A stretch of DNA of 64,000 nucleotides, from the NCBI GenBank assembly GCA_964354025.1, contig CAYGXQ010000005.1:3366-67365 (forward strand). Direction: 5' to 3'. The translations under genes and the position numbers were made by a program. This DNA is from an uncultured Gammaproteobacteria bacterium. Lineage in GTDB: Bacteria > Patescibacteriota > Microgenomatia > 2-02-FULL-39-11. Below, one piece after another: positions 1,130 to 63,666 of the stretch. Position 1 is the first letter of the stretch; each line of letters begins with the position of its first letter. The notes under the pieces are model-generated. The model worked only from the letters and a program-made list of their open reading frames with translations. It ran no database searches and was not told the origin of the DNA.

Positions 1130-1957
1130 ATGAAAAAAAAGCTGCTCGTTGTTGTTTTATTGGGGATTCTTTTTTTGCTGCCTGTAGCTCTATACGCTTT
1201 GAAAAACGCTACTGGCGATACCCGCTCCAAAGCAAGTAATCCTAATATCCCTCCGCAAAACATCACCATCACTAATCTCAATGCTGAAGGTTTCACCGTC
1301 AACTGGCTGACAACTAATCCAACTGTTGGCAAAATATATTACGCCAAAAAAACAGATTTTGACCGGATCAAAATCCCCAACCTGATGGCGGTAGAAAGTT
1401 TTGATACTGATCAATCGCCGCCGAAAGGATTTCTACCAAATACCCACAGCGTCACTTTAACCGGACTTTCCCCCCTCACCGAATATGCCGTCTTCATCTG
1501 CAATTCAAACAGCTGCAACAATAACCAGTTATACGGCATGGGTATCGCCACCGCTACCGGCAGCGCTGTCCGGCAAGGTATTGGCATCCCGATGAAGGTG
1601 AAAACACTCACCCCGATAAATCCGCCTGAAGAATCCAAACCGATTTTCGGCACTTTGAAATTTACCAACAAAAAGATACCAACCTCAATACTAATATTTG
1701 CCACCTTGAAAAAAGGCGCTTCAGTTTCCGCGCCTTTATCCGTCTCGATATTGCCGACTGCCGTCCAGACCGAAATTCCCTTTTCCATTGAACTGGCCAA
1801 CGCTAAACTGGCAGACCTGACCGGCAACTTCCCTATTGAAGAGACTGACCTGATCACGGTCAAAGCCTTTTGGGTCGAAGACGCTAAAGTGAAAACTAAG
1901 CAATTTGTCTATCCGGTTTCCCAAAGTTTCCCGATTAAAGACATTTTGGCATTATGA
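1130..1957 (+). CDS. Secreted or membrane-anchored protein with a fibronectin-III-like segment
   Basis: N-terminal MKKKLLVVVLLGILFLLPVALYA signal; an ITITNL..GFTVNWL..Y motif typical of FN3; ATGA overlap with the next gene. Confidence 0.55.
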   Translation: MKKKLLVVVLLGILFLLPVALYALKNATGDTRSKASNPNIPPQNITITNLNAEGFTVNWLTTNPTVGKIYYAKKTDFDRIKIPNLMAVESFDTDQSPPKGFLPNTHSVTLTGLSPLTEYAVFICNSNSCNNNQLYGMGIATATGSAVRQGIGIPMKVKTLTPINPPEESKPIFGTLKFTNKKIPTSILIFATLKKGASVSAPLSVSILPTAVQTEIPFSIELANAKLADLTGNFPIEETDLITVKAFWVEDAKVKTKQFVYPVSQSFPIKDILAL

Positions 1958-4900
1958 CAGACGTAACCAATCCAATACAAATAAATCCAGTACAACCTAA
2001 TCCGGTCCAATCGCCCGCTCCATCTGAAGAGAAACCGGCAGGATCGAAAATATCCGTGAAAAAGATCGTCCTCAGTCTGTTTATCATTATTATTATCTGT
2101 CTCCTTGTCCCGATATTAGTGCTCTTTTTAAATCCTTTCGGGATACTGACAAACCGTATCAATCAGGCAAAAACAATAACAACTGAGAATAAAACCTCTT
2201 TTGACCGGCTGATAGACAGGGTTGTCCTGATACCGGAAACATTTACCCAAAAATTTATACCGGTGAAAAAACCGGCTGACAGTTTTTTGAACAGAGAGAT
2301 CAAGTCATATTACGAGAATAAAGATAAACCGGATCAAATAAAAATCATTTACAGCAACCAGCCGGAACTGACTACTCCTCAAGCAACTGACAGCGGCAAT
2401 GTCCGGGGAATCAGTACGGACAGCCGGGGCGAAGTCCTCGCGGCTGTCAACCAGTTTTATGTCCAATATATGCCCATGCCCGGCAAGGCCAACTTTTCTT
2501 CCAACCAATTTAACGGTTCCGCTTCTTTAAGTTATCCTCTCAACCTGCCGAAAGGTCCGGGCGGTTTTACTCCCGGTGTCAGCCTGAATTATTCTTCCGA
2601 AAGCGTCGATGCACTGATGCAGCAGACGGATACCAAAAAACTGCAGTATTTTGCCCGGCAAAGCGGTCCGGTTGGTTTGGGCTGGTCGCTTTCCGCCGGC
2701 GAGGGTTCGGTAAATGTGGACCGTCATGGCAGTGAAAATCCCTGTTCATGGAATTATAAATTATCTTTCTCCGGCGGATCGGCGGAATTTTTCAAAGTCG
2801 ATGACAACGGCAATCCGATTACAAGTTGTAAAGACGCCAACACGGTCAGCCCCGAATGGCTAAATTCCAAAAAATGGCGCACCAACCCGGAGCTTTTTCT
2901 CAAAATCGAGCAGGGCTGGGCCAGTGATTTATTCCCCGGCGACTCTGATTTTTCTTTCTCCAGAACCAGGGTCGGCGATGCACAAGTCAACAATCCCGGC
3001 CAGGACGCCCGGGAAGAAAGATTTGATATCTGGAAAGTGACTACTCCGGACGGCTCCGAATACGTCTTCGGCAACGGTAAACAGGAACATTACAGCCAGA
3101 GAGCTCAACCTCAGGGCGATACTTACATCTTTATGATAAAAGGTTTAAATGACAGCCAGATAAATACCTGGAAACAATACCGCGTGAAAAATCTCTTCGG
3201 GCAAAAAATGATTTACCGCTATAATCCGGTTTGGAACGCCTCGGCTCTATGGGTCGGTGAGGGTAACGTTTCCGTCAGTAATCTTGCCGGTATCGAATAC
3301 GGAGTAAACAAGATCGAGTTCCTTTATAACCAGGCAAGAAAGGATACCGGACTGGTAAAAGAAAACGGTCTTTATTGGGCGCAAAATCCTTATGAATACA
3401 CTTATATCGCTCCATATGCCCTTTCGGCCATCAAGGTCTATTCCAAAACCAGCCAGCTTTTGAAAACCTATGAATTAACATATTGGGACGGAAACGCGAC
3501 CGGGAACGGGGCATGGATAGATGCAAATTCGACTGAAGTCGGCCAGCCATGCGGCGGATTCTGGGACTCGGCTCACCCAATCACATATCAGGTAAAAGGA
3601 TATTATAAAATTAACAATGACCAAAATGTCCAGTCATATCACTTAGTCCTCAAATCAATTAAGGAAACTACGCCTTCCGGTGCTTCCCTGCCACCCCAAA
3701 CTTTCACCTATCAAAAAGTTGATGATATTATCAATATGCTTGATCCTTCTCCGCCCGCGGGCAAAAGCAAAGGCTGCTGGCAAATTACTCCCAAAACCGT
3801 AACAAACCGCAACAGTATCTATATCCAAACCGCCGATAACGGCTTCGGAGGCAAGACTGAATATATTTTTGAGACAGCCAGAAAAGCCGACCGGATTTAT
3901 TTGCCTGAGGGTACTAATTTCTTGGATAACGGTTACGACAATCCGGTATTTGATTATAATACTGTTATTGATGACGCGTCGAAAACTGCCTTTTACGAGA
4001 AGTATGAAAGGCCGTTTCGGCAAAGAGGCTTAAGAAGAGCGCGCCTGCAAAGAATCAAAGTCTCCGACGGCCTGAATAATTTTAATGAATCATATTTTGA
4101 TTATGGTACGGCAGAACCGAAAACTGTCCTGAAGCAGATAGGCAAAAGTTACGCTTATGTGGAAAATACTTATGATGATGATTTTGTCGGTTACAGCGGT
4201 GTAACCGTCTATTCCGGTAAGAAAAACCTCGCTCTCAACCCAGGCAGCATTAACTCCTGGGCTTCCAAATCAAAAACTTATTATCACCAGATACTGACTT
4301 CTTCCGGCTGCGCCAAAAAAGATCCCCGGGCCGGTTCCAACTACCGCAGTCAGGGATTTGACGAAAACGGCATCATCTCGGAAAGTGTCCAATACAGCCG
4401 TTTTAAAAATTGGACTGATGTTACCAATAACATCAATTCACTTCCCAATCCAATCGGTGAATCCTGTGCAGACATTCCTCCAAGACCGGTGGTTTTTCAA
4501 TTAAAAACGGATTCTATCACCGCAAAACAGGGTGAAAACGTAGCTTCTCTTTTTGACGCTTGCACGACCACACATCCTTCTTACTGTAATATTATCCAGA
4601 CCGAAGTGAAGAATTATGATTGGGATCCAACGAGTAATACCAATCCGGAAAAAAACAAATTCGGCGCTCTTATAAAGACTGAATCATATTTGAGGAAATA
4701 CGAAAGTGGATCTTATGTCCTGAATAAACTGGCCAGCTCCCAGATCAACTATCTGTCACAGGGCTATAAATACGGAGACTCAAGCACCTACCTTCTCAAT
4801 AAACCTTATGAAACCTGGATTAATAACCCTGTTTCTGACGGTAAAAGATACAAATGGCAAAGAACGTATTATGATAATCAGGCTTTCGGGATACTGAACG

Positions 4901-7900
4901 GAATCGGCAAAAATCTCACCACGAAAACAGAAACCTGTCTCTATGAGAATGCGACATGTAAGATTGCCGGTCAATCGGAAATCCTGCAATATGATAGCTA
5001 TGGAAACGCTCTTCAGGTAAAAGACGGTCAGGGCAATATCAGTAAAACTTCCTATGACGGCACATATAATGCTTATCCGAAGAAATCCATTAATGCTTTA
5101 GGCCAATTCAGCACCACCGAGTATGACTTTGAGACCTCTATCTCTGCTACCAACCCGACCAATCTCGGCTTACCAGTATCAGTAACCGATATTAATGGTC
5201 TAGTTTCCAAAAGCACTTATGACGCTTTGGGCTGGCTGAAAGCTGTTTATAAACCGGGTGACACAACTCCATCAGCAGAATTTGAATATCATCTTAATGA
5301 AAACTCACTCTATGGCGTTCCGATTGCCGTCATGGCCAAAGTCCGGACAGAAAAAGGGACGACTGATGAGGCAAAAATTCTCAAGACTTATGACCTTTAT
5401 GACGGTCTGGGCAACAAAGTCCAATCCCAATCGCTCATACGCAATAATAATATTGACCAATTCATTACATCATACGCCGACGTCGACTACACCTGGAATC
5501 AAAATAATCCCGGAGTCAAAACTATCGCCAGCGAAAATTATGACACGGCAAATTTTGGAAAGCTCAACACCACAATGGTCGGGACGACGACCGGAACCGC
5601 CAAGAAATCTTATGCTTTTGCCAATCTCTCCGGCCAGAACTGGAAAAGCATTGATATGAACGGTAACGTCAGCTACTCATACAGCAATCCGGAAGATTTC
5701 ACCGCTAAAACCGTTTCCCCCAACGGTCTGATCGCTTATGCCGCTGCTGATCCGGTTGCCCGAACACAAACCGGTTCAGTCTGTAAAGACATTGTCAGCG
5801 GTTATACTCCCAATGACGGTACTTTTTTAACTGATAAATTCCTACGCAGCTGTCCCGTCTCCGGAGCAAAAATCTCCACCAAGACCGTCTCCGATTTCAT
5901 GGGTAATACCACCTATGTGTATGACAATCTAGGGATCACCAGCGGCGGAAAGCCTTTAACTACCAATATTTATGACTCACTCGGCCGGCTGCGAACCTCA
6001 AATGATGCTGATTTGGGTATTTCAAACGTCGTCGATTTCGATCTTAACGGCAATATTTTAAAAACTACAAACGCGGCCGGGACCGAATTTAGAACTACCT
6101 ATGACGCTCTTAACCGTCCGTTTGAAAAATATGTCGCTGGACAGCTTCGAAATAAATTCTATTATGACCAACCGTATGATGGCCGGATTTGCGGTACTAC
6201 TAGTACTGCTACTAAAGGCAAACTTTGCAAAAAAGAAGAATGGGGCAATGATCCTTTAAGTCCTTCTTCGCAGGGTAATCTGATCCTTAAATATCTCAAA
6301 TATGACGATCTGGGAAGAGTGCTTGAGGAAAGAGTCAATTACGGCGGGACGCTGGCTTCAAAATTCGGCGGCAGCGACTTTGTCACTTCTTATACTTATG
6401 ACAATATCGACCGGGTTTTGACGGTAAAATACCCCGATTTTGCCGGCTCGGGGATTCCCCCAGAAACTGTCACCAATACTTATACGGGGCCTTATCTTTC
6501 GATGGTCAAAGGGGATAAAAATTATGTTAACAGTTTAGCTTATGATTACTTGGGACGCTTAACTAAAAGATCCTTAAATGGAGGAACCGTTTACCCGATA
6601 ACTGAAGACTATGCTTATGACGTCAACAGAAGGCTTTCACAAATCCAGGTCACCAACGTTTCAAAAGATCAGGGCACTTTCAAAGGGGTTAATTTGGCTT
6701 ATAACAATTATGACAGTGCTACCGGCAATATTTTAGGTATTATGGACAACGCTATCTACGCTAACCCGTTGCTTTCCAAAACCATGAATTATAAATACGA
6801 TAATCTTTCCCGACTGGTTTGCGCTGATTCGAGCACTAATTGTAATAATCCCCAGTTTGCCAATGCCCAAAACACATATTCATATGACGATCTGAATAAT
6901 TTATTAAACAAAAAAGAAGATAAAAATTATGCTTTTGCTATCGACAGCAACTTCCCCTACCACGGAGTGAAAAAAGTGACCGCCGGAACTACTCCCGGAC
7001 CAGGTATTTCTTATGATAACCTCGGCCGGATGACTTCCTATACCGTCCCCGGAGGATACCAGATCGATATCCCGAAAGCTGATGGCTTTGACCTCAATTC
7101 CGGCAAGCCGCAAAAGATAGTTTATACCAATCTGGCTGCTATGCCTACTTTAGCATCAACTCCGATTCCCACCGTCACCAAAACTCCGACTCCGACGGCT
7201 ACCAAAACACTGACGCCGACCACGACCGCCGCCGCACAACCGACACTCACTCCAACCAAAACGCTTACACCAACTATTACCAAATCACCCACTCCGACGA
7301 TAACCGGTCAGGCAGTCAAATCACCCACGCCGACTGTCACCAAAACACCCACACCGACAGCAACAGGTGCGGCTGTCAAAACTCCGACTCCGACTACTGC
7401 TCAAACCCAAACCGGAAACATTTTGACTCTTCAACCTTCTCCGGCCGTAAATAACAATCTATCCCTTAATACATCTCTTTCGCCTTCTGCGATCATGACC
7501 AAAGTCAGAAGCACCTGTTCCGTCACCGAAAACAGTAAACTTTCGTATAACACGGCATCAACAAAATACACTTATTCTGTTGTCGTCATCCTGGGTAAAA
7601 CTTATTCATTTAACAACTTCAAGATTCCCACTATTCCCCCTAATGGAATATTTTCCATTTCTTACTCGGGCGGGAAATCAAACTGCCAGGTCAGCTTCCC
7701 CGCCGCCTTAGGCATCCAGGTCCAAGCCCAAACTCCGAGCAACGCGGTCACCGAAGTCTATTATTACGACGGCGAAGGAAGCAGAATCATGAAAGCGCTG
7801 GTAGGTTCTGACGGTAAACTGTCTAATGAAGTCCTTTATATCAACCAATATCTGGAAAAAGACAGAGGCGGCAAACTTTTCCGGAAAAATTATTACGCCG

Positions 7901-8778
7901 ACGGCAAACTGGTCGCGGTCAGAAATTTTAATTATCTGGACAGTGAACCGGCCATCCCCGCTATCACTGCCGTGCCAACTGGCCAATATAACCCAATTTC
8001 AACTATTACAGCCGGAGCCTATGCCACTGCCGCTCCCTACCGTTCACCGACTCCGTTGCCGCCCGGTGCCGCTACTCTTACCCCAACTCTCCCCCCCGGA
8101 ATCTATCTGAATTCCGGCGGGAATATTTCAACAACAGTAGGAGGAAACGGGCAATTTAAATCCTGTACTTCAGTATGTAATGCTAATAATGGTAAAGTTT
8201 GCGTCAGTGTCGGAACCGATATTTACGGTTCAAATGGGATGCTTAAAACTTGGGATGCCTCAAATGGAGGTACCGGAGAATGTTTTGACGGAAATAACAG
8301 CGGTACGCCGATTAATTGTACTGATATTATTACTGACAAAGGAGGCCGGCCCAAAGCCTGCCCGGACAGCGGACATCTGACCAACTGGACCAATTGCAAC
8401 TGCGCCAATCCTTCTCCTACTGTCACGCCCACAAAAATTCCTCCTACCGCTACCCCCACTAAAACACCCACGCCTACTCCAGCTTTAGTGATAGAAATAA
8501 ATGATGGAACGAAAGCAACAACTTGTACAACTCTCTGTTTAAACTCAACCAAAGCTCCAGGTTCCTCTTGTATCAGCGTAGGAATAAACGCTCAAGCTAA
8601 TGATCGCTACATGATGACTCTGGGTAAAGATGATATCTATGGTCAGTGCATAACATACTCAGATGAGAATCTTAATTGTTCCTCAATTATGGGAAATAAA
8701 TTTAGTATGAGCAAATCTTGCAGTAATACTCTCGGTGAAACTCATATCGCCAACTGGACTAAATGCAAATGTCAATAA
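1954..8778 (+). CDS. Giant (2274 aa) membrane-anchored YD/RHS-repeat protein with a Thr/Pro linker and C-terminal Cys-rich modules
   Basis: Repeated YDxxGR(L/M) motifs (YDSLGRL, YDALNRP, YDDLGRVL, YDNIDRVL, YDYLGRL, YDNLSRL, YDNLGRMTSY); N-terminal TM helix; TPTPT linker; no DPxGL-type RHS core seen. Confidence 0.85.
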   Translation: MTDVTNPIQINPVQPNPVQSPAPSEEKPAGSKISVKKIVLSLFIIIIICLLVPILVLFLNPFGILTNRINQAKTITTENKTSFDRLIDRVVLIPETFTQKFIPVKKPADSFLNREIKSYYENKDKPDQIKIIYSNQPELTTPQATDSGNVRGISTDSRGEVLAAVNQFYVQYMPMPGKANFSSNQFNGSASLSYPLNLPKGPGGFTPGVSLNYSSESVDALMQQTDTKKLQYFARQSGPVGLGWSLSAGEGSVNVDRHGSENPCSWNYKLSFSGGSAEFFKVDDNGNPITSCKDANTVSPEWLNSKKWRTNPELFLKIEQGWASDLFPGDSDFSFSRTRVGDAQVNNPGQDAREERFDIWKVTTPDGSEYVFGNGKQEHYSQRAQPQGDTYIFMIKGLNDSQINTWKQYRVKNLFGQKMIYRYNPVWNASALWVGEGNVSVSNLAGIEYGVNKIEFLYNQARKDTGLVKENGLYWAQNPYEYTYIAPYALSAIKVYSKTSQLLKTYELTYWDGNATGNGAWIDANSTEVGQPCGGFWDSAHPITYQVKGYYKINNDQNVQSYHLVLKSIKETTPSGASLPPQTFTYQKVDDIINMLDPSPPAGKSKGCWQITPKTVTNRNSIYIQTADNGFGGKTEYIFETARKADRIYLPEGTNFLDNGYDNPVFDYNTVIDDASKTAFYEKYERPFRQRGLRRARLQRIKVSDGLNNFNESYFDYGTAEPKTVLKQIGKSYAYVENTYDDDFVGYSGVTVYSGKKNLALNPGSINSWASKSKTYYHQILTSSGCAKKDPRAGSNYRSQGFDENGIISESVQYSRFKNWTDVTNNINSLPNPIGESCADIPPRPVVFQLKTDSITAKQGENVASLFDACTTTHPSYCNIIQTEVKNYDWDPTSNTNPEKNKFGALIKTESYLRKYESGSYVLNKLASSQINYLSQGYKYGDSSTYLLNKPYETWINNPVSDGKRYKWQRTYYDNQAFGILNGIGKNLTTKTETCLYENATCKIAGQSEILQYDSYGNALQVKDGQGNISKTSYDGTYNAYPKKSINALGQFSTTEYDFETSISATNPTNLGLPVSVTDINGLVSKSTYDALGWLKAVYKPGDTTPSAEFEYHLNENSLYGVPIAVMAKVRTEKGTTDEAKILKTYDLYDGLGNKVQSQSLIRNNNIDQFITSYADVDYTWNQNNPGVKTIASENYDTANFGKLNTTMVGTTTGTAKKSYAFANLSGQNWKSIDMNGNVSYSYSNPEDFTAKTVSPNGLIAYAAADPVARTQTGSVCKDIVSGYTPNDGTFLTDKFLRSCPVSGAKISTKTVSDFMGNTTYVYDNLGITSGGKPLTTNIYDSLGRLRTSNDADLGISNVVDFDLNGNILKTTNAAGTEFRTTYDALNRPFEKYVAGQLRNKFYYDQPYDGRICGTTSTATKGKLCKKEEWGNDPLSPSSQGNLILKYLKYDDLGRVLEERVNYGGTLASKFGGSDFVTSYTYDNIDRVLTVKYPDFAGSGIPPETVTNTYTGPYLSMVKGDKNYVNSLAYDYLGRLTKRSLNGGTVYPITEDYAYDVNRRLSQIQVTNVSKDQGTFKGVNLAYNNYDSATGNILGIMDNAIYANPLLSKTMNYKYDNLSRLVCADSSTNCNNPQFANAQNTYSYDDLNNLLNKKEDKNYAFAIDSNFPYHGVKKVTAGTTPGPGISYDNLGRMTSYTVPGGYQIDIPKADGFDLNSGKPQKIVYTNLAAMPTLASTPIPTVTKTPTPTATKTLTPTTTAAAQPTLTPTKTLTPTITKSPTPTITGQAVKSPTPTVTKTPTPTATGAAVKTPTPTTAQTQTGNILTLQPSPAVNNNLSLNTSLSPSAIMTKVRSTCSVTENSKLSYNTASTKYTYSVVVILGKTYSFNNFKIPTIPPNGIFSISYSGGKSNCQVSFPAALGIQVQAQTPSNAVTEVYYYDGEGSRIMKALVGSDGKLSNEVLYINQYLEKDRGGKLFRKNYYADGKLVAVRNFNYLDSEPAIPAITAVPTGQYNPISTITAGAYATAAPYRSPTPLPPGAATLTPTLPPGIYLNSGGNISTTVGGNGQFKSCTSVCNANNGKVCVSVGTDIYGSNGMLKTWDASNGGTGECFDGNNSGTPINCTDIITDKGGRPKACPDSGHLTNWTNCNCANPSPTVTPTKIPPTATPTKTPTPTPALVIEINDGTKATTCTTLCLNSTKAPGSSCISVGINAQANDRYMMTLGKDDIYGQCITYSDENLNCSSIMGNKFSMSKSCSNTLGETHIANWTKCKCQ

Positions 8779-8799: not shown

Positions 8800-9216
8800 T
8801 TATATCCGCAGATTTTGAGGAATAAAAATGAGGTCCGTTTCCCTTTTGGCCGCCGCTTCGTCTTCTGAGGCATGAATGGCGTTTTGCTGGATGTCTGTCC
8901 CGAAGTCGCCGCGGATGGTTCCTTTACCCGCTTTGGTACTGTCTGTCGGACCGCACAATGCCCGCACGCGGCTGACAACATCTTTTCCTTCCCAGAGCAT
9001 CGCCATGACCGGTGTTTCCTGCATAAATTTTTTCAACCCTGGAAAAAACGGCTTCTCTTTGTGATGGGCATACCACTGATCAAGAAGTTTATCGGAGAGC
9101 CTGACGAATTTGGCCCCTGCCAGGATAAAACCGGCTTTCTCGAAGCGGGAGATAATTTCACCGATCACCTTTTTCTTGACGGTGTCGGGCTTGATGAGAA
9201 TGACTGTCTGTTCCAT
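8800..9216 (-). CDS. ndk: Nucleoside diphosphate kinase
   Basis: Full-length similarity pattern (ILIKPD..GEII..FE..GF, NAIHASD-like, catalytic His region). Confidence 0.9.
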   Translation of the reverse strand: MEQTVILIKPDTVKKKVIGEIISRFEKAGFILAGAKFVRLSDKLLDQWYAHHKEKPFFPGLKKFMQETPVMAMLWEGKDVVSRVRALCGPTDSTKAGKGTIRGDFGTDIQQNAIHASEDEAAAKRETDLIFIPQNLRI

Positions 9217-9220
9217 AAAA

Positions 9221-9276
9221 TTAGCGTTTAGCTCCTAGCGTTTAGCGTTTCGTTTATAACTAGACGCTAGACGCTA
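9221..9276. repeat. Composite heptamer repeat: (TAGCGTT)n half followed by (CTAGACG)n half
   Basis: tagcgtttagctcctagcgtttagcgttt...ctagacgctagacgcta. Copies of the same family lie at 37037-37107 (inverted) and, split, at 37781-37813 plus 37959-37990. Confidence 0.7.
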
Positions 9277-13530: not shown

Positions 13531-15012
13531 CTATAACACACCCAAAACCTTGGTCAAAGCTTGGGTTTCGAATTGGTTGAAGCTCTCGATATCACCTACT
13601 GCTTGCTGATTCAAGCAGACGAAAATCGAATAAGAACCATCTGGTTTTATAAAGCCTCCCATATCGTGGTGATTCATGCCAACTTTAAATTCACCTTCAC
13701 CGATTATATGAAACGATGAAATGCTACTTGGAACTGGGTATTGCGTCTTAAAATATGCCAATCTTGTTTTATTATCTGTTTGTTCCGCTAAAGCCTGTAT
13801 GATAAAATCTCTGTCTTCATCTTGAAGTAATCGTCTATTAATAATATTCCCAAGTATTTTGCCTAAATCTCCAGCCGTAGTCATAAAAAGTTGATGCGAT
13901 ACACTATAGTCAGTCTTCGTCAGCTCTAGTTCTGTCTGTAATCTTTTTGCAATGATTTTACAGGATGCATCCCAATTTCTTGTGCCTGTCAATTGATAGA
14001 CCAATCCTTCATATACATATTCATCGTGATTCCTCAATAGTCTAAATATCGCCTCCCGAAAGTTTGGGTAAGTATGTCCCATAAAAACCACCGGATTTGT
14101 TAGATTGTATTTTGCCGGATTTTGACGGATATCCCGCAAGGCCAACATTGCTATAGGCAGTGTAATCAAACTCCAGGCTTCAAAGGGGACTTCCGAATTC
14201 ACGGCAATCACTTCACCTTTTTCATTTTGGGCAAAAAAGGCGGACTGCCCGGGCATTTCTTTTGCCAAACCGGCAATCTCCTCCTGCACTTCGGCGATCA
14301 ATACCGTCCTGTCTTTCACCGGTCTGGTCGGCTTTTCCAAAACATGTTCTTCCCTTTCCCGGTAAATGCCTCCTCCGCCATAACCCTGTCCGGGCGGGTT
14401 GACTGTTTCTATGACCGGTGGAGCTTGTATAGCTGAAGGTTTTTCCGGTATAAATTTGGAAAGAATCCATCCCAAACCGGCTGCACCGGCCGCACCTGCC
14501 AATCCGATCACTAATTTCCTTCTCGTTTGACAAAAACGTATCCGGTTATCAACCAGATAACCGAAATTGGCAATTTTCCTTGCGGCTGTCCGGTCAAGTT
14601 GATCAATGCTGATAGCCTGCGGGTCTCCCCATGCCTGACCGTTATATTTTCTCACCGCAAAAGATACCTCATCGCCTTCTATATTCAAGCAATAATATTT
14701 ATCCGGACTGGTTCTGGAAAAATAACCTACTTCGCTCAAAGCCTCACCTTGCAATCTCACTAAAAAACTGTCTCCCTCATCTAACTCCAAAACCGCCTTA
14801 TCTTTCTTAAAAGACACATCTCTGCCCAAAGCAAAAAGAAGAGTATCTTCTTGAGGTTTTTCCGCCACCACCGGCGTTCCCCTGAACAGCTCAAATTCCG
14901 TCAAGGCTTTAGCCAGCGGCCGGCTATGGTCTATCAACCACGAAGTATTTATCCTTTCTTCGCTTTGTGCCGGATTAATGGATAAAGCAGCTATCTCGCC
15001 AGTCATAATCAT
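13531..15012 (-). CDS. Membrane-anchored protein whose C-terminal domain resembles a degenerate class A beta-lactamase or transpeptidase fold
   Basis: Central TM (LVIGLAGAAGAAGLGWIL) and a GYGGGG tract. The C-terminal region aligns by eye with class A landmarks: FEAWSLIT for FxxxSxxK (Lys replaced by Thr), TRN for SDN, KVG for KTG, then a DMGGFIKPDGSYSIFVCL-like strand. Confidence 0.5.
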   Translation of the reverse strand: MIMTGEIAALSINPAQSEERINTSWLIDHSRPLAKALTEFELFRGTPVVAEKPQEDTLLFALGRDVSFKKDKAVLELDEGDSFLVRLQGEALSEVGYFSRTSPDKYYCLNIEGDEVSFAVRKYNGQAWGDPQAISIDQLDRTAARKIANFGYLVDNRIRFCQTRRKLVIGLAGAAGAAGLGWILSKFIPEKPSAIQAPPVIETVNPPGQGYGGGGIYREREEHVLEKPTRPVKDRTVLIAEVQEEIAGLAKEMPGQSAFFAQNEKGEVIAVNSEVPFEAWSLITLPIAMLALRDIRQNPAKYNLTNPVVFMGHTYPNFREAIFRLLRNHDEYVYEGLVYQLTGTRNWDASCKIIAKRLQTELELTKTDYSVSHQLFMTTAGDLGKILGNIINRRLLQDEDRDFIIQALAEQTDNKTRLAYFKTQYPVPSSISSFHIIGEGEFKVGMNHHDMGGFIKPDGSYSIFVCLNQQAVGDIESFNQFETQALTKVLGVL

Positions 15013-17627
15013 ATTCTCACTCCTGTTTGTCTGGCTTGGGCGCGGCGCAGACCAGCTCTTACTGCTTTTTGACCTCTTATCATTTCATTTCGCTTCGCGT
15101 TTGAAACTGCCCGGCTTTCTGCCCGGATACCGGCTCCTTGTTTTTCCTGATATTCTTTCCAACCAACAGGCCTTACCTCTCCTCCGGCTGATTGGGTTAA
15201 AGTGACCGGATGGACAGACTGCAGTCTGGTAGATACCGGTTGCTCGCCGTAATAAGCGGCGCCGGAGAGATATTTCGCCCGCGATTTGACTAATTTGTCC
15301 AAAGTCTTCAAAGCTTCTTTTTCATCTGCGTCCGTCAAAATAGCAATGATCGAGGATTTTTCGTCTGTACCGGCTTTGGCACGCAAAAGATGAAAAAGTT
15401 TGCCGTTAACCATGAAATGGCTAATATCTGCTTGATAACCAAGATCAGGTATTTCCGTTCCACCCTGAAAATCAGCCGGGGTGAGAGTTAAACCCGGACA
15501 AAAGCCGCTGGTACCGATTGCTCCCTTGGTTGAACAAACTTCTTGTCCATCTACTTTTATGCTTTTTATCACCGTCGGTTCCAGATGCCGGCCGCCCAGA
15601 TCAATGGAAAATGCAGTCATTAAATCAAGCATAGAAAATCTGCCTTTCTCTGTTTCTATCAATAAATCAGCTGGAGAAATATTTCCTGCCATAGCACTCA
15701 CCAAACTTGCTTTCTCTTTATCAATAATATCTAAAACCGCGATTGAATTGGTTCCTTTCAATTTAGCCGCTTCTTCAACCGCCACCTTTTGTATCCCCGC
15801 TTCCAGAGTGGTTTGCACCTCCACACTGTAATTGGGAAGATTCTTTCCAAACATCTTCTCCAATTCGCCAAAAACCATGCCATTATAAAAGTTTCTTTCC
15901 TGCGGCACTTCCGGAGTCAGGATTTTTACCTGGTCCAACTCTTTCAATATCTCTGATTTTTCATCCGGATTGACTGCTCCTTTCTTGATTAAATTATCCA
16001 AAACGTCTTTAGCATGATTTAATAAAGCTATCTTACCTTCCGATGTTGTTGGATCATAAGTTGTTGGCGACTGGATCATGGCGGTTAAAAGTAATGACTG
16101 GGCTCTATCTAAATCTTTGGCGTCTTTACCAAAGTAGATTTGGGCGGCTGCTGGTACCCCATTACACTGGTTGCCTAAATAGATTACATTCAAATACATT
16201 TCCAGAATTTTATTTTTCGGATAATTACGAGTGATTTCATCGGCCAACAACCATTCTTTCACTTTTCTTGGTAATGATTCTGTTCTTGCGTATTCCGGGC
16301 TAAATAACAAATTACGGGCTACCTGTTGGGTGATAGTCGATGCTCCTCCTTCTCTGATAAACGGCATGATGCTTTTTATTTGAGAAGGAGTAATCTTGCC
16401 AAAAAAAGCTTTGATGATATCCGGCACGTTATAACCGGCATTGGTGTAAAAAGTCGGATCTTCATTTCCGACTGCATAAGCGATCATATATTGTGATATT
16501 CCATCTATGGAAACATAATTTTTCAAACCGCCTTCGGGAGCAAATCTGACCGTTATCGGAGTGCCTGTACTATCTTCTATCGTCACCGGCTGATTTGCCC
16601 GCGTCTGTTCCGCCAATTCGGTTGTGGGAGGTAAATGCAATTTATCCATAAACATCGGCCTGACCCCCTGAGACCAAGTAGCGTCTAGAACTCCCAGCGG
16701 AAAATCAATTACATAAGGCTTGGTAATAGGACTGGTGGCCAACGCATAAGCCGCTATCGCCATTACCGCCGGACCTTTTAAGCGCAACAATTGCGCCAAA
16801 TATCTCTGATACAAGGCTTCCTGTTTAGCATGAAGAATTCGTGGCGTCGTGGCAGCCTTCCTTTCTGCTTTTTCTCTTGTTTGTTTTTCTTTCCTATCAG
16901 CCACCCTTTTCTCCACATCTGCCACAATCGCTTTCATCTTGCCTGGTTCTCCGGCCGCTCTTTCAACCTCAAAAATCAGATCAGAAGCACTAATGGCTAA
17001 TCGGATATATTTTCTTTCGCCGGCTTCCATCCGTTCTTCTTTTTTCCGCATCACTTCTCCCAAGACTTGGGTTAACCGTATCCTGCCAAGTGTTAAAGAT
17101 CTCTCTACTTCCTCAAGTAAATGTGAAACTGACATGGCCGGTCTGAAGGCGCTAGTAATCTCTTCCCTGAGTTGTTTGACAGCCGGAAAATCTTGGGGAA
17201 AGTGTTCTGTCAGTTGTTTAGTTGGATAAAAGTTAAGAACTCGAAAATCATTTTCGGTGATTGCATATAGAGTAGGATTGTCATGATATTGGGCTAATCT
17301 TTCTTCAAGGTATGCTCTCCAGGCAAGATAAGGAGCCTCTTTGGGATTAGCCGTTATCTGTTCTCTCAAGGCAATTGCCTGATCTTTACTGGCTTTCCCT
17401 TTAGATTCCAATATAGTCAGGATTTGTACATAACCTGCCGGTTCTACGCTGGTCACTATCAGGGCCAGAAGACTATCAGGATAAGGTTGTTCAGGATGAC
17501 TTTTCTGGCGTTGGATCTGCTCTGTTAAACAACCAAAGGCAATGTCTGACCGAGTGAGTGTTGGTCTTACCTCAGGTTCTACGTTTAGTCCTACCCTTAG
17601 TGGTGAAGTTAATTCAGCTGATATCAT
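15009..17627 (-). CDS. Large protein with an internal GT51 peptidoglycan glycosyltransferase (transglycosylase) domain; no transpeptidase motifs
   Basis: All five GT51 motifs seen: GNEDPTFYTNAGYN, GGASTITQQVARNL, RKVKEWLLADEITRNY, KNKILEMYLNVIYLG, RAQSLLLTAM. A TM segment precedes the domain. The N-terminal extension is about 285 aa. ATGA overlaps on both sides. Confidence 0.8.
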   Translation of the reverse strand: MISAELTSPLRVGLNVEPEVRPTLTRSDIAFGCLTEQIQRQKSHPEQPYPDSLLALIVTSVEPAGYVQILTILESKGKASKDQAIALREQITANPKEAPYLAWRAYLEERLAQYHDNPTLYAITENDFRVLNFYPTKQLTEHFPQDFPAVKQLREEITSAFRPAMSVSHLLEEVERSLTLGRIRLTQVLGEVMRKKEERMEAGERKYIRLAISASDLIFEVERAAGEPGKMKAIVADVEKRVADRKEKQTREKAERKAATTPRILHAKQEALYQRYLAQLLRLKGPAVMAIAAYALATSPITKPYVIDFPLGVLDATWSQGVRPMFMDKLHLPPTTELAEQTRANQPVTIEDSTGTPITVRFAPEGGLKNYVSIDGISQYMIAYAVGNEDPTFYTNAGYNVPDIIKAFFGKITPSQIKSIMPFIREGGASTITQQVARNLLFSPEYARTESLPRKVKEWLLADEITRNYPKNKILEMYLNVIYLGNQCNGVPAAAQIYFGKDAKDLDRAQSLLLTAMIQSPTTYDPTTSEGKIALLNHAKDVLDNLIKKGAVNPDEKSEILKELDQVKILTPEVPQERNFYNGMVFGELEKMFGKNLPNYSVEVQTTLEAGIQKVAVEEAAKLKGTNSIAVLDIIDKEKASLVSAMAGNISPADLLIETEKGRFSMLDLMTAFSIDLGGRHLEPTVIKSIKVDGQEVCSTKGAIGTSGFCPGLTLTPADFQGGTEIPDLGYQADISHFMVNGKLFHLLRAKAGTDEKSSIIAILTDADEKEALKTLDKLVKSRAKYLSGAAYYGEQPVSTRLQSVHPVTLTQSAGGEVRPVGWKEYQEKQGAGIRAESRAVSNAKRNEMIRGQKAVRAGLRRAQARQTGVRI

Positions 17628-29726: not shown

Positions 29727-29739
29727 ATGTCAAGAGAGT

Positions 29740-29798
29740 ACCTTGCAAGGTTGAACCTTGCAAGGTTATTGACAATCAATCTTTCGCTTTCTACACTG
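29740..29798 (+). promoter_or_regulatory. Tandem 12 bp palindromes ACCTTGCAAGGT, separated by TGA, abutting a sigma70-like promoter for gene 29807-31273
   Basis: ACCTTGCAAGGT at 29740-29751 and 29755-29766; TTGACA at 29770-29775; 17 nt spacer; TACACT at 29793-29798. Confidence 0.5.
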
Positions 29799-29806
29799 GA
29801 TTTACT

Positions 29807-31273: not shown

Positions 31274-31312
31274 AGCTAAATCTCTATTTGCACCTTGGGT
31301 ATTCAGATTAAA
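31262..31312. repeat. 46-50 bp dispersed repeat, copy 1
   Basis: gtgcaccttagagctaaatctctatttgcaccttgggtattcagat; second copy at 32150-32196 with about 90 percent identity. Confidence 0.7.
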
Positions 31313-31373
31313 ACCCTTTTTTCAGCCAGTATTTTTTCCATTCTTCGCTATTTTTGACTTTACCGTGTAAAAT

Positions 31374-32141: not shown

Positions 32142-32149
32142 AATACAAA

Positions 32150-32196
32150 GTACACCTTAGAGGTGAATCTCTATTTGCACCTTGGGTATTCAGATG
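32150..32196. repeat. 46-50 bp dispersed repeat, copy 2
   Basis: gtacaccttagaggtgaatctctatttgcaccttgggtattcagat. Confidence 0.7.
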
Positions 32197-32210
32197 TAAT
32201 AACTGTAATA

Positions 32211-32243
32211 ACAACCCCTCCCCCTCTCCAGCGGGGAAGATTA
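32211..32243. repeat. Hairpin repeat family CCCCTCYCC..TTTCCGGCGGGGRA, copy a, at the 3' end of a minus-strand gene
   Basis: Four related copies: 32211-32243, 33201-33237, 33779-33809 and 34124-34150. Confidence 0.6.
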
Positions 32244-33159: not shown

Positions 33160-33200
33160 AAGAATTGGATCTATTGTAGCATTCTTTTTTACCGAAGAAC

Positions 33201-33237
33201 AATCCCCCTCCCTCTTTCCGGCGGGGGGAAAAAATTA
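33201..33237. repeat. Hairpin repeat family, copy b
   Basis: aatccccctccctctttccggcggggggaaaaaatta. Confidence 0.6.
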
Positions 33238-33761: not shown

Positions 33762-33778
33762 AAAAGATACTTGAATAA

Positions 33779-33809: not shown

Positions 33810-33814
33810 CGTAA

Positions 33815-56262: not shown

Positions 56263-56793
56263 ATGAGAACGCGACAAATCGTGAGTCTGCTTGTCTTGGT
56301 TTTGGTCGTCGTTGCCAGCCTTGTCACGTCGGAATCTACGTGTGCCCAAAGTCTGGCGTGCGATGCCGACGTGAATAACGACGGCGTTGTGAATATCTTT
56401 GACCTAGCCATCGTCGCCGACAATTTCGGCACCACGACTAGCGACGGGCGCTTTGACGGGGACGTCAACGGCGATGGCATTGTGAACATCTACGATCTCA
56501 CCGTTGTGGCAGGCCAATTTGGCCATATTTGCCAAGGGCTCGAGTTGTTCGACGTCAAAATTGACGAGCCTTTTAACGTCCTGATCGACGGAAATTGGAA
56601 GTACGTCTGGATTAATTCCGGTCACCAGGGGCGCACTAATGTCCAGGGAACCAACTTGGTGACTGAAGAGATTGGGCCGGATCAGTATCGGGTCACCAAT
56701 TTCGAACGACAATGGTTCGATATCTTGTACCTGGGAGGTGGAAAATTTCGTATAGTCACCGACAATTGGCTGATACACGTCCCTCCCCAATAG
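56263..56793 (+). CDS. Secreted dockerin-domain protein
   Basis: Signal peptide; two dockerin Ca-binding repeats DVNNDGVVNIFDLAIVADNFG and DVNGDGIVNIYDLTVVAGQFG. Confidence 0.7.
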   Translation: MRTRQIVSLLVLVLVVVASLVTSESTCAQSLACDADVNNDGVVNIFDLAIVADNFGTTTSDGRFDGDVNGDGIVNIYDLTVVAGQFGHICQGLELFDVKIDEPFNVLIDGNWKYVWINSGHQGRTNVQGTNLVTEEIGPDQYRVTNFERQWFDILYLGGGKFRIVTDNWLIHVPPQ

Positions 56794-61744: not shown

Positions 61745-63666
61745 ATTACCAAAGGTGTCCTATCTGGGACACCTCTAAGGTGTACTCTGTATTGACAGGC
61801 TGGCAAATAGTCTGTAGTCTGGAATTAGACGTGAAAAAGATAATTTCTTATATCACGGTTTTTGTTTTTTTTGTCATTTCTGCCCTTCTCGTCACAATCA
61901 CCAAATCAGGGAAACCCGTTTTTGCTCTTGTTGGTACGTATTATAATTATGCTTCTGGTATATCCTGCGATACAGTCTGCAGTAGAAATGAAGGGTATTG
62001 TGTTGGTACAAGCAATATGCATAAATGGGATCCAAATGGTGATGGTGCCTGCGCAGAGTATCCTTCAAGTTGTACAGATTTGATGACGGCCGGATATGGA
62101 ACATGCGGAGGTTATCAAAATCGTTGGAATCAGTGTACTTGCAGCAGTAGAAGTATTAAAGTCAATGAAGCATCCGGCAAGTCCTGCAATCAGATATGCG
62201 GCAGCGGCAACTGCGTCACTGTTGGCAATGATTCTTTGGCAAGGAATGGATTGAAATATCAATGGGACACTGGAGGAAACGGTTGTAATGCTCCTCCTCC
62301 GTCAAGTTGTTCCGACGTTATAAGGGAGCAGGGGGCCAACAAAACAATGTTTTGTGGAGGCCGTCATGTCGAATGGACCAATTGCTGGTGTGAAACGGCG
62401 CCGCCGGCAACGCCGACACCGACTGTTAGTTGTTCCTGTTCAGGTACAAATGACTGTATAGGCAAGTCGCCTCCCTGTGGAGGCACTTCCTGTGTCATCG
62501 GCACTTGCGGTTCGGTTCAGACGCCAACTCCCACCGCCACACCGACTGTCACAACGACACCGACGCCAATAAGAGGTACTTGTACCGATTCCGATGGAGG
62601 TTTAAATTACTATGTAAAAGGAGTAGTAACTCATAATGGCGTTGAGATCCCCACGGATTGGTGCAAAACCGCCACTACGGGAATAGCTAATACAATACCG
62701 GTGCTTGCAGGAAGATATTTGAATGAAGGAATTTGCCCTGATGCATATACTTTTTCAACTGTGAATTATGAATGTCCGAACGATTGTTATGATGGTGCGT
62801 GTTTATCAACCTTAACACAAACTCCCACTCCTACCCGGACACCTACACCAAGCCGTACAAATACACCTACTCCTACCAGAACGCCAACACCGGGAAGTTC
62901 GTCTTCTTATAATTGGGTAGATGTTTATCCAATACCAAATATGAAATCATGTAATACTATATGTCAGGAGCAGACCCCTTCCAGCCAATGTGGTAATGTA
63001 TGTGATGGTGGGTATGGATTCAAAATAGGTACATTTAACAGTTCATGCAATTACAGCGTGGATGTCATCAATTGCACTTCGTGCGCCGGTCTTCACCTGT
63101 ACTGTTGTTGCAATTCCTCAATTTCTCTTACCCCTACTCCAACCCCAACCACACCGGCCAATATTTCCCCAACGATTACGCCAACCCCTTATTGCCAATG
63201 CGACCTTTGGGCGGTGGTAGACGACCATTGCGCACCCAAATTTGCTTCCTGTACTGCCAAATATACCTGTGATTGTCTTAATCAATTGCCAACTGTCACT
63301 CCAACACCATCCGGATCAATCAGTCTCACACCAACTCCAACCATACCTGCCAATATCACTGTAACCCCTTCCCCTACCACGAATCCAAACATCTCTCCTA
63401 CCGTGACTCCCTCCCAGCCTCCAATCTCCGTCACTCCTACCATCACACCTCCGGCATCATGTACCCCTTGTGTAAAAAAGAACCAGGGTGACGCGGACTG
63501 CAACGAAGTGATTAACGGTGCTGATTACACTATCTGGAAATCTGATTTTCTTACCGGAGCAAGATTTACCAATGGCTGTCCGGCTTCGGATACGGCTGAT
63601 TTCAACAATAACGGCAGAGTGGACCTTCAGGACTTTGAGATCTGGCGGAAAAACAGTTATTTATAA
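61684..63666 (+). CDS. Secreted Cys-rich modular protein with Thr/Pro linkers and a C-terminal dockerin domain; probable start at the GTG near 61832 (VKKIISYITVFV...)
   Basis: Signal-anchor; repeated Cys modules (C.x.C...W..C.C) similar to the C-terminus of 1954-8778; C-terminal DCNEVINGADYTIWKSDF and DFNNNGRVDLQDFEIWRKN dockerin repeats. Confidence 0.65.
   Translation: MVLHRRGSSISRISESAGVLNYQRCPIWDTSKVYSVLTGWQIVCSLELDVKKIISYITVFVFFVISALLVTITKSGKPVFALVGTYYNYASGISCDTVCSRNEGYCVGTSNMHKWDPNGDGACAEYPSSCTDLMTAGYGTCGGYQNRWNQCTCSSRSIKVNEASGKSCNQICGSGNCVTVGNDSLARNGLKYQWDTGGNGCNAPPPSSCSDVIREQGANKTMFCGGRHVEWTNCWCETAPPATPTPTVSCSCSGTNDCIGKSPPCGGTSCVIGTCGSVQTPTPTATPTVTTTPTPIRGTCTDSDGGLNYYVKGVVTHNGVEIPTDWCKTATTGIANTIPVLAGRYLNEGICPDAYTFSTVNYECPNDCYDGACLSTLTQTPTPTRTPTPSRTNTPTPTRTPTPGSSSSYNWVDVYPIPNMKSCNTICQEQTPSSQCGNVCDGGYGFKIGTFNSSCNYSVDVINCTSCAGLHLYCCCNSSISLTPTPTPTTPANISPTITPTPYCQCDLWAVVDDHCAPKFASCTAKYTCDCLNQLPTVTPTPSGSISLTPTPTIPANITVTPSPTTNPNISPTVTPSQPPISVTPTITPPASCTPCVKKNQGDADCNEVINGADYTIWKSDFLTGARFTNGCPASDTADFNNNGRVDLQDFEIWRKNSYL

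What the first reader, a model, noticed from the sequence alone, without database searches (positions are those of the whole stretch)
8176..8778. A shared cysteine-rich module family links the giant YD-repeat protein and the dockerin protein
The last ~200 aa of 1954-8778 contain two modules of the form C(T/D)x(V/L)C...C..VG......W(D)..G..C......C.......(W)TNC.C, which follow a TPTPT linker. Very similar modules separated by TPTPT linkers build most of protein 61684-63666: CDTVCSRNEGYCVGTSNMHKWDPNGDGAC...WNQCTC and CNQICGSGNCVTVGND..YQWDTGGNGC...WTNCWC. That protein ends in a dockerin. A second dockerin protein lies at 56263-56793. This suggests a lineage-specific extracellular binding module deployed on different scaffolds, and possibly a cohesin-dockerin-like surface assembly.
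Basis: seen in the sequence. Interest (0 to 1): 0.6.

Follow-up and report, generated by a model that had tools for sequence, protein, structure and literature searches.

The report
New cysteine-rich surface module family
Two surface proteins of an uncultured Microgenomates (CPR) bacterium share an undescribed eight-cysteine domain of about 80 residues; the same domain caps pilins, proteases and cohesin/dockerin proteins in other ultra-small bacteria and archaea, so it is a candidate host- or glycan-binding head.

Summary
The giant YD/RHS protein (1954-8778) ends in two copies of an eight-cysteine module, and the dockerin protein (61684-63666) begins with two more. BLASTP of G1 against D2 gives E=2e-9. 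A profile built only from foreign family members recognises all four copies (E 1e-7 to 3e-16), and nothing else in the window matches.

An exhaustive HMMER search of 1.84 billion proteins found 23 further carriers, in CPR bacteria (Microgenomates, Parcubacteria) and in an archaeon. All eight Cys, one Gly and one Trp are invariant. The signature is C-x3-C...C-x-SVGTD...NG...C...C...C...G-x4-WTNC-x-C.

No match was found in Pfam, NCBIfam, PDB sequences, or Foldseek against PDB and BFVD, despite confident AF2 models (pLDDT 85). The module sits at chain ends of secreted or anchored proteins. It is fused to type IV pilins, an archaeal-type pilin, a T4SS pilin, cohesin, dockerin, subtilase and LamG. 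It also occupies the PilY1 slot of a Parcubacteria minor-pilin operon.

The best reading is a distal adhesin or ligand-binding head; this function is inferred, not shown. No cohesin lies in the window.

The parts
1954..8778 (+). Giant membrane-anchored YD/RHS-repeat protein (2274 aa) carrying two terminal modules
   Evidence: ORF and translation. Pfam RHS_repeat E=1e-14, weak SpvB hit at aa 185-217. Seven YDxxG[RN] motifs and no DPxG / PxxxxDP RHS-tip motif.
2065..2139 (+). N-terminal transmembrane anchor of the giant protein (aa 38-62), preceded by KK, which implies N-in/C-out topology
   Evidence: Sequence. Hydropathy 3.58 over 17 residues. Coordinates. The topology is inferred from the positive-inside rule.
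7135..7410 (+). Internal T/P-rich linker inside the YD region (aa 1728-1819)
   Evidence: Sequence. Coordinates.
7942..8100 (+). P/T/A-rich linker between the last YD-like segment and module G1
8101..8403 (+). Module G1 (aa 2050-2150). The eight-Cys core is nt 8164-8403. There is an insertion of about 12 aa between the conserved LNS strand and Cys1.
   Evidence: AF2 pLDDT 84.9, pTM 0.73.
8404..8487 (+). TPTPT-type linker between G1 and G2
8488..8775 (+). Module G2 (aa 2179-2274). It is the most divergent copy and ends at the stop codon.
   Evidence: Foreign-only profile E=3e-9.
61831..63666 (+). Multi-module dockerin protein. The longest ORF starts at 61684. The likely start is GTG 61831 (MKKIISY..., signal anchor nt 61834-61899), behind a promoter-like TTGACA-17 nt-TAGTCT.
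   Evidence: The choice of start codon is an inference.
61936..62142 (+). Module D1 (aa 85-153 counted from 61684). It is a short variant with a trimmed SVGTD..NG loop.
   Evidence: E=0.004 against G1; E=8e-8.
62155..62391 (+). Module D2 (aa 158-236), the copy closest to the family consensus
   Evidence: E=2e-9 against G1; E=3e-16. AF2 pLDDT 85.6.
62431..63276 (+). Four other Cys-rich modules between TP linkers that do not belong to this family: CSCSGTNDC... (62431-62508), CTDSDGGLNYY... (62581-62802), a 10-Cys module (62950-63111) and a 6-Cys module (63193-63276)
   Evidence: Not detected by the module profiles. The first small module is shared with P0021.
63460..63663 (+). C-terminal dockerin-like domain with two Ca-loop-like repeats
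   Evidence: Pfam Dockerin_1 E=0.007, 17 bits, below the gathering score of 22.9. The same GDADC...DY.IW type occurs in P0018.
56368..56511 (+). Dockerin domain of the second, small dockerin protein (ORF 56263-56793). This protein has no module.
   Evidence: Pfam Dockerin_1 E=2.3e-8, 34.6 bits, above the cut-off.

Best explanation
The four segments are copies of an undescribed extracellular domain of about 75-95 residues with eight invariant cysteines, so presumably four disulfides.

Signature: [LV]-N-x-A-x-G-x-S-C-x3-C-x(4-10)-C-x-S-V-G-T-D-x(4)-N-G ... C-x(6-16)-C-x3-M ... C-x(3-9)-G-x4-W-T-N-C-x-C.

Predicted fold: a short helix carrying C-x3-C packs on a small antiparallel sheet whose last strand carries C-x-C. 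The long loops between Cys3-Cys4 and Cys4-Cys5 vary in length.

Proposed function: a ligand-binding (adhesin or lectin-like) head held at the far end of surface structures.
- In this Microgenomates bacterium, one carrier is a membrane-anchored YD/RHS giant protein. A TP-rich stalk projects two heads from its C-terminus.
- The other carrier has two heads at its N-terminus and a C-terminal dockerin that would dock it to a partner.
- In other CPR bacteria and in archaea the same head sits on pilins, cohesin and dockerin proteins, and proteases.

Shown: the family exists, its signature, its absence from the libraries searched, its terminal position, its fusion partners and its gene contexts.

Inferred: disulfide formation, the extracellular location, the binding function, and the nature of the ligand (host envelope glycan or protein).
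For: Family membership.
- Four copies in the window, mutually significant and recognised by a profile built from foreign members only.
- 23 further carriers in 1.84e9 representative proteins.
- 34 aligned modules share invariant 8 Cys + Gly + Trp, with fixed C-x3-C and C-x-C spacing.

Structure.
- Two independent AF2 models have pLDDT 85 and pTM 0.73 and share one topology. The helix covers Cys1 and Cys2 and the last strand covers Cys7 and Cys8.

Location.
- 23 of 25 carriers have an N-terminal hydrophobic signal or anchor.
- 16 of 25 end with the module and 4 start with it.
- CPR genomes are enriched in MdbA-like oxidoreductase and VKOR for extracytoplasmic disulfides (10.1101/335083). A DsbA-like gene lies about 5 kb downstream of the module gene in L012.

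Pilus links.
- P0025 is a type IV pilin (KGFTLLELL) next to another pilin.
- P0005 and P0014 start with archaeal class III signal peptides (AQAGLEYLMTYGWA) on an archaeal contig.
- P0008 is a T4SS pilin fusion within a pilin array.
- The three-module Parcubacteria protein P0004/P0033 follows PilD, a major pilin and three minor-pilin-like genes. That is the slot PilY1 occupies in classical operons.
- Type IV pili mediate host adhesion in Saccharibacteria (PMC10633639, citing PMC9894109).

Other partners.
- Cohesin, dockerin, subtilase+LamG, PPC, PKD.

Other features typical of binding modules.
- Tandem copies.
- Length-variable loops on a fixed Cys frame.
- Only 31% identity to the matching pair in a sister genome whose ArgRS is 87% identical.
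Against: - No ligand, binding site or structural analogue was identified, so the function rests on architecture and context alone.
- Only 25 carriers were sampled, with a weak four-sequence profile, so partner statistics are thin.
- The strongly conserved SVGTD..NG and WTNC motifs could be purely structural.
- The window itself holds no pilus genes next to either carrier.
Confidence: 0.6

Rival explanations
1. Self-anchoring module. The domain binds the cell's own wall or S-layer polymer and retains proteins at the surface, as SLH or cell-wall-binding repeats do, rather than contacting a foreign target.
For: It sits at the extreme C-terminus in 16 of 25 carriers, like many sorting or anchoring domains. 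It occurs on secreted enzymes such as subtilase P0010, which need retention.
Against: Many carriers already have another anchor at the opposite end. These include the N-terminal TM helix of the giant protein, pilin N-termini, and dockerins in D, P0023 and L120. A pilin subunit anchored back to the wall makes little sense. In D and P0021 the modules are N-terminal.
Confidence: 0.15
2. Purely structural cap or spacer. It would be a protease-resistant, disulfide-locked terminal plug or oligomerisation knob with no specific ligand.
For: The residues that never vary are mostly structural (8 Cys, Gly, Trp). No catalytic or recognisable binding motif was seen. The composition is N/S/T/G-rich.
Against: Promiscuous shuffling onto unrelated scaffolds in two domains of life, tandem multiplication, and placement in the tip-adhesin slot of a pilus operon are all typical of functional binding modules.
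Confidence: 0.13
3. Toxin or antimicrobial cargo. The C-terminal modules would be the polymorphic-toxin tip of the RHS protein, perhaps an enlarged defensin-like peptide with a cysteine-stabilised alpha/beta (CS-alpha/beta) core.
For: RHS proteins classically carry toxins at the C-terminus (established knowledge). The module has C-x3-C in a helix and C-x-C in the last strand, the hallmark spacing of the CS-alpha/beta motif.
Against: - The giant protein lacks the RHS-tip cleavage motif, and Pfam finds no PF03527 core in it. ORF 45522-46853 in the same window has that motif.
- About 50 residues of P/T-rich linker (nt 7942-8100) and a further TP linker before G2 separate the modules from the last YD segment.
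- No candidate immunity gene follows. The only ORFs downstream are 8800-9216 on the minus strand, which looks like nucleoside diphosphate kinase by inspection, and an overlapping 119-aa plus-strand ORF (8872-9231) that I read as spurious.
- Most carriers are not RHS proteins.
- The modules are neutral to acidic, with median net charge -1.5.
- hhalign against five defensins gives a probability of 0.3%.
Confidence: 0.08
4. Chance resemblance between unrelated cysteine-rich, low-complexity segments.
For: Cys-rich sequences align easily, and both proteins contain several other Cys-rich modules.
Against: BLASTP with composition adjustment gives E=2e-9. A profile from foreign sequences finds exactly these four segments and not the other Cys-rich modules. 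Non-Cys positions are invariant. The AF2 models are confident and concordant.
Confidence: 0.01

Closest known systems
Cysteine-stabilised alpha/beta (CS-alpha/beta) motif of defensins and scorpion toxins
   Same: C-x3-C lies in a helix and C-x-C in the final beta-strand. Both spacings are invariant in 34 of 34 modules, and the secondary structure agrees in two AF2 models. One module nested inside another (P0014) implies that the N- and C-termini are adjacent, as this pairing would predict.
   Different: The module is twice the size (75-95 aa against 35-50 aa) and has about 50 residues of extra loops and strands between the helix and the last strand. It is neutral to acidic rather than cationic. 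It is a domain of large proteins, not a free peptide. There is no profile similarity (hhalign probability 0.3%) and no Foldseek hit to any defensin. The disulfide pairing is unverified.
Carbohydrate-binding modules and lectin heads of cellulosomal and surface proteins
   Same: Small, autonomous, non-catalytic extracellular modules joined by P/T linkers. They are often in tandem and shuffled among enzymes and cohesin or dockerin proteins.
   Different: No sequence match to any Pfam CBM or lectin family. Four disulfides are unusual for bacterial CBMs. Carbohydrate binding was not tested.
PilY1 / minor-pilin-associated tip adhesins of type IV pili
   Same: In Parcubacteria the three-module protein is the last gene after PilD, a pilin and three minor-pilin-like genes. 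Other members are direct pilin fusions.
   Different: There is no sequence relation to PilY1. The similarity is positional and functional only. The two window carriers are not in pilus operons.
C-terminal polymorphic toxin domains of RHS/YD proteins
   Same: They sit at the C-terminal end of a YD-repeat protein.
   Different: No RHS-tip motif, a long linker, no immunity gene, and occurrence mostly on non-RHS proteins.

Membership tests
Any described protein family (Pfam-A 2025, NCBIfam 20.0) | A profile HMM match covering the module | tested here: not met
   Window proteins at E<=1 gave no hit on the modules. The 34 isolated modules at E<=10 (Pfam) and E<=1 (NCBIfam) gave only scattered single hits, with no family matched by more than 2 members. 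The 24 full-length carriers matched only their partner domains.
Any solved structure (PDB) | Sequence-profile or fold similarity to a solved chain | tested here: not met
CS-alpha/beta defensin-like fold | C-x3-C in an alpha-helix and C-x-C in a beta-strand | tested here: met
   The spacing is invariant. DSSP of the models places helix 10-16 / 10-14 over Cys1-2 and the last strand 86-90 / 73-79 over Cys7-8.
CS-alpha/beta defensin-like fold | Disulfides Ci-Cj and Ci+4-Cj+2 linking helix to strand | not testable with these tools
   Model coordinates are not returned. The only support is indirect: the nested module in P0014 implies adjacent termini.
CS-alpha/beta defensin-like fold | Sequence or profile homology to defensins, compact size of 35-50 aa, cationic charge | tested here: not met
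   hhalign probability 0.3%. Length 73-94 aa. Median net charge -1.5.
Dockerin type I (C-terminus of 61684-63666) | Pfam PF00404 above the gathering score, with a duplicated Ca-binding loop plus helix | tested here: inconclusive
   17 bits against a cut-off of 22.9, E=0.007. Two loops, DADCNEVINGAD and DFNNNGRVDLQD, are visible in the sequence. Calcium or cohesin binding was not tested.
Dockerin type I (56263-56793) | Pfam PF00404 above the gathering score | tested here: met
   34.6 bits, E=2.3e-8.
Cohesin-dockerin assembly in this genome | A cohesin-bearing partner protein | tested here: not met
   Pfam scans of 32 of the 37 non-overlapping window ORFs of at least 150 aa found no cohesin. phmmer and an HMM built from the cohesins of P0007, P0009 and P0018, run against the whole six-frame translation of the window, gave E>0.19. 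Only 64 kb of the genome was available.
RHS/YD-repeat protein (giant ORF) | Multiple YD/RHS repeats | tested here: met
   Pfam RHS_repeat E=1e-14, three stretches. Seven YDxxG[RN] motifs.
RHS polymorphic toxin (giant ORF) | Conserved RHS core tip (PxxxxDPxGL-type motif, PF03527) preceding a toxin domain, plus a downstream immunity gene | tested here: not met
   The motif is absent by regex and there is no PF03527 hit. No plausible immunity gene follows: the downstream ORFs are 8800-9216 on the minus strand (NDK-like by inspection) and an overlapping 119-aa plus-strand ORF 8872-9231 read as spurious.

The most novel reading that the evidence does not exclude
The module would be a previously unrecognised fold built on a defensin-like cysteine-stabilised helix-strand core. 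It would serve as the interchangeable host-recognition head of ultra-small episymbionts. It would have been exchanged between CPR bacteria and DPANN-like archaea and mounted on pili, RHS cocoons and cohesin-dockerin scaffolds. Its hypervariable loops would set host range.
Probability: 0.2. Interest if true: 0.7.

Novelty: new member of a known kind. Interest (0 to 1): 0.45.

Why it matters
How CPR bacteria and DPANN archaea recognise and attach to their hosts is largely unknown. Type IV pili and dockerin-bearing envelope proteins are already implicated in Saccharibacteria (PMC10633639). This work points to a compact, disulfide-locked domain that recurs at the tips of pilins, a pilus-operon tip-adhesin slot, a giant YD protein and cohesin/dockerin proteins in both domains of life. 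Its absence from Pfam, NCBIfam and the PDB gives a concrete, expressible target of about 80 aa for binding assays and structure determination. It also provides a sequence signature for annotating hundreds of 'hypothetical' surface proteins. Finally, it shows that this giant YD protein is more likely an adhesin stalk than a classical RHS toxin.

Tried and rejected
- Word-indexed homologue searches returned nothing or almost nothing: four-module alignment, 34-module alignment (one hit, P0026), family consensus. The index is unsuited to this divergent short domain.
With D1-D2 as a single query it found no relative in GTDB genomes.
Only L101 and L120 (plus a doubtful L022) are real modules.
- The exact window proteins are not retrievable through the look-up of encoding contigs.
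- Homology to defensins was rejected.
- Classical RHS toxin cargo was rejected.
- The fifth Cys-rich module of the dockerin protein (aa 423-476, starting KSCNTIC) was considered as a degenerate copy, but no profile supports it.
- Literature searches for a prior description found none. Coverage is limited to open-access text.
Full report
**1. Observation**

ORF 1954-8778 (+) encodes a 2274-aa protein. Its parts, in order, are:
- an N-terminal transmembrane helix (aa 38-62);
- RHS/YD repeats (Pfam RHS_repeat E=1e-14, with a weak SpvB-like stretch);
- an internal T/P linker;
- two segments after a further P/T-rich linker, each with exactly eight cysteines: G1 (aa 2050-2150, nt 8101-8403) and G2 (aa 2179-2274, nt 8488-8775), separated by a TPTPT-type linker.

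ORF 61684-63666 (+) carries two segments with the same cysteine frame directly after its signal anchor: D1 (nt 61936-62142) and D2 (nt 62155-62391).

The resemblance is not a by-product of cysteine richness.
- BLASTP with composition adjustment gives E=2e-9 for G1 against D2 and 0.004 for G1 against D1.
- An HMM of the four copies finds only those four in the six-frame translation of the 64-kb window.
- An HMM built exclusively from 30 modules of other organisms recovers G1, G2, D1 and D2 at E=1e-13, 3e-9, 8e-8 and 3e-16. It ignores the other Cys-rich modules of the dockerin protein.

- D1+D2 are only about 25% of the dockerin protein.
- D1 and D2 are joined by a short non-TP spacer.
- The remaining four Cys-rich modules (nt 62431-63276) are of different kinds.

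The gene probably starts at GTG 61831 (MKKIISY...), behind a TTGACA-17-TAGTCT promoter-like site.

The second dockerin protein (56263-56793) passes the Pfam cut-off. The C-terminal dockerin of 61684-63666 scores below it (17 against 22.9 bits) but shows the duplicated Ca-loop motif.

**2. Organism**

The window's arginyl-tRNA synthetase is 87% identical to that of 'Candidatus Microgenomates bacterium isolate PFL108'. The next best matches (35% and 30%) are to Parcubacteria and Woesebacteria. The window therefore comes from a Microgenomates (CPR/Patescibacteria) genome. Its proteins trace to an NCBI contig of 75,523 bp.

**3. The family**

The exhaustive HMMER search of 1.84e9 representative proteins used the four-copy profile. 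It returned the two window proteins and 23 others at E<=1e-3.

Re-profiling gave 34 complete modules.
- Eight Cys, one Gly (in SVGTD) and one Trp (in WTNC) are invariant.
- Thr of WTNC is present in 31 of 34.
- C-x3-C and C-x-C spacings never vary.
- Cys3-Cys4 ranges over 16-28 residues and Cys4-Cys5 over 6-16 residues.

Names given by sources are only 'hypothetical protein' (Parcubacteria ADurb.Bin316) and 'PPC domain-containing protein' (Microgenomates).

No Pfam or NCBIfam model covers the module. This held for the window proteins, for the 24 full-length carriers and for the 34 isolated modules at permissive thresholds. PDB sequences give no hit with either profile.

**4. Structure**

AF2 with the 34-sequence alignment gave confident and concordant models for G1 (pLDDT 84.9, pTM 0.73) and D2 (pLDDT 85.6, pTM 0.73). 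Both show the same order of elements:
- a short N-terminal strand;
- a helix over Cys1-x3-Cys2;
- a strand with Cys3 (C-x-SVG);
- a hairpin;
- a strand with Cys4;
- loop-rich segments with Cys5 and Cys6;
- a final strand W-T-N-C-x-C.

The helix C-x3-C plus strand C-x-C arrangement is the spacing of the cysteine-stabilised alpha/beta motif of defensins. That comparison draws on established knowledge. The similarity stops there.
- hhalign against five defensins gives a probability of 0.3%.
- The module is twice as large.
- It is neutral to acidic.

One archaeal protein (P0014) has a complete module inserted into the Cys3-Cys4 loop of another. This implies that the module's termini are adjacent and that this loop is a permissive surface loop.

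**5. Where the module sits**

Of the 25 carriers, 23 have an N-terminal hydrophobic signal or anchor. The two exceptions are truncated gene calls. Sixteen carriers end with the module and four begin with it right after the signal.

Partner domains are:
- cohesin (P0018 E=1.5e-13, also with a dockerin; P0009 weak);
- dockerin (P0023);
- subtilase plus LamG (P0010);
- PPC (P0021);
- PKD, Flg_new and fn3-like domains.

Four independent links lead to pili.
- P0025, read from its true start, is a type IV pilin (KGFTLLELL) next to another pilin gene.
- P0005 and P0014 begin with archaeal class III signal peptides (…AQAGLEYLMTYGWA…). P0014 lies on a contig with ribosomal proteins S19e and L31e and with Rpr2, so it is archaeal.
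- P0008 is a T4SS-pilin fusion inside an array of T4SS pilin genes.
- The three-module Parcubacteria protein P0004/P0033 is the last gene of an operon. The operon runs prepilin peptidase, a 464-aa protein, a pilin and three minor-pilin-like proteins before it. That is the position PilY1-type tip adhesins hold in classical minor-pilin operons (the PilY1 comparison is from established knowledge).

Two extra members recovered from metagenomes also end in the module, one behind a TP linker and one behind a dockerin-like half-site.

**6. Mechanism proposed**

The module is best read as a disulfide-locked binding head displayed at the distal end of surface structures.

In the window, the giant protein is anchored by its N-terminal helix (N-in by the positive-inside rule, inferred). 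Beyond the YD region it projects two heads on P/T stalks. The dockerin protein presents two heads at its N-terminus and would be held by its C-terminal dockerin.

Extracytoplasmic disulfide formation is plausible in CPR. These genomes are enriched in MdbA-like oxidoreductases and VKOR (10.1101/335083), and a DsbA-like gene lies about 5 kb downstream of the module gene in L012.

Type IV pili and a dockerin-domain envelope protein are implicated in adhesion and are essential, respectively, in Saccharibacteria (PMC10633639).

The matching N-terminal tandem pair in the sister genome PFL108 (P0021) is only 31% identical, against 87% for ArgRS. That fits fast-evolving recognition surfaces, although paralogy is not excluded.

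The ligand is unknown. A host-envelope glycan or protein is the working guess.

**7. Rivals**

- Classical RHS toxin tip. This is unlikely.
  - The giant protein lacks the RHS-tip motif and PF03527 core, both of which are present in the separate ORF 45522-46853.
  - The modules are separated from the YD region by long linkers.
  - No candidate immunity gene follows. The ORFs downstream are 8800-9216 on the minus strand (NDK-like by inspection) and an overlapping 119-aa plus-strand ORF that I read as spurious.
  - Most carriers are not RHS proteins.
- Self-anchoring role. This conflicts with carriers that already have an anchor at the other end, and with the pilin fusions.
- Purely structural cap. 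This cannot be excluded, but it explains the shuffling and the pilus-tip position poorly.
- Chance similarity. This is excluded.

**8. Cohesin-dockerin idea**

No cohesin was found in the window. Pfam scans covered 32 of the 37 non-overlapping ORFs of at least 150 aa. Profiles made from the family's own cohesins, run against the whole six-frame translation, also found none. Only 64 kb of the genome could be examined. The idea remains open, and the module itself is neither partner of such a pair.

**9. Verdict**

This is a genuine domain family that, as far as these searches reach, is undescribed. It belongs to a familiar kind: a modular extracellular cysteine-rich head.
- The family and its architecture are well supported.
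- The function is inferred with moderate confidence (about 0.6).
- Interest is moderate. It offers a concrete handle on host attachment in CPR/DPANN and re-reads a giant 'RHS' protein as an adhesin stalk, but nothing here overturns current concepts.

Noticed in passing
window 45522-46853 (-): This 443-aa ORF has an N-terminal hydrophobic segment and a canonical RHS C-terminal tip (YYIHTDNLGS..., YYNARYYDPVLSRFISADS, NRYSYVGGNPIMRNDPGGD; Pfam PF03527 E=9e-5). About 300 aa follow, containing an HEYAH (HExxH) motif. It looks like a stand-alone RHS-tip / metalloprotease-like toxin cassette without a YD shell. The giant YD protein lacks this tip.
   Followed up: partly
L017:620-1696 (protein P0014, archaeal contig): One complete eight-Cys module is inserted inside another. 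The outer module supplies Cys1-3 and the SVGTD..GTDG loop, then comes the whole inner module, then outer Cys4-8. The protein starts with an archaeal class III (pilin-type) signal peptide.
   Followed up: partly
window 61792-61833: A promoter-like TTGACA-17 nt-TAGTCT lies just upstream of GTG 61831. The annotated or longest ORF start at 61684 overlaps the upstream SNase-like gene (61001-61744) and is probably wrong. The transcript may be nearly leaderless.
   Followed up: partly
window 62431-63276 (+): The dockerin protein carries four further, mutually different Cys-rich modules, including CTDSDGGLNYYVKG... and CSCSGTNDCIGKSPPCGGTSCVIGTC. The latter is well conserved in P0021 of the sister genome. 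None has a Pfam match.
   Followed up: no
window 7135-7941 (+): The YD region of the giant protein is interrupted by a 92-aa T/P linker and a beta-rich segment of about 115 aa with two Cys. A last YD-like stretch follows (YYYDGEG...YYADGKLVAVRNFNY). This is an unusual insertion for an RHS shell.
   Followed up: no
window 1130-1957 (+): A 275-aa fn3 / purple-acid-phosphatase-N-like protein overlaps the start of the giant gene by 4 nt, so the two are likely co-transcribed. Family member P0013 has a weak sub-threshold hit (E=0.004, 18 bits against a cut-off of 30) to the same domain type upstream of its module.
   Followed up: no
window 13531-23743 (-): A 2039-aa ORF without any Pfam hit (17624-23743) lies in an apparent operon with a transglycosylase (PBP-like, 15009-17627) and a beta-lactamase-family protein (13531-15012).
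   Followed up: no
window 28362-40633: A cluster of defence and mobile-type genes: two AbiEii toxins (32241-32918 on the minus strand, 34762-35574 on the plus strand), two AAA_14/DUF4143 ATPases (28362-29726 and 39254-40633, both minus strand), and a HlyD-ABC-MacB/FtsX export system (35989-39202). A second MacB-like gene lies at 46917-48146.
   Followed up: no
L138 (GCA_022866885.1, Microgenomates PFL108) 5145-7203: P0021 has the same N-terminal tandem module pair as the window's dockerin protein, but at only 31% identity, in a genome whose ArgRS is 87% identical. A pilin-like (N_methyl) gene and an AbiEii gene lie upstream on the same 7.2-kb contig.
   Followed up: partly
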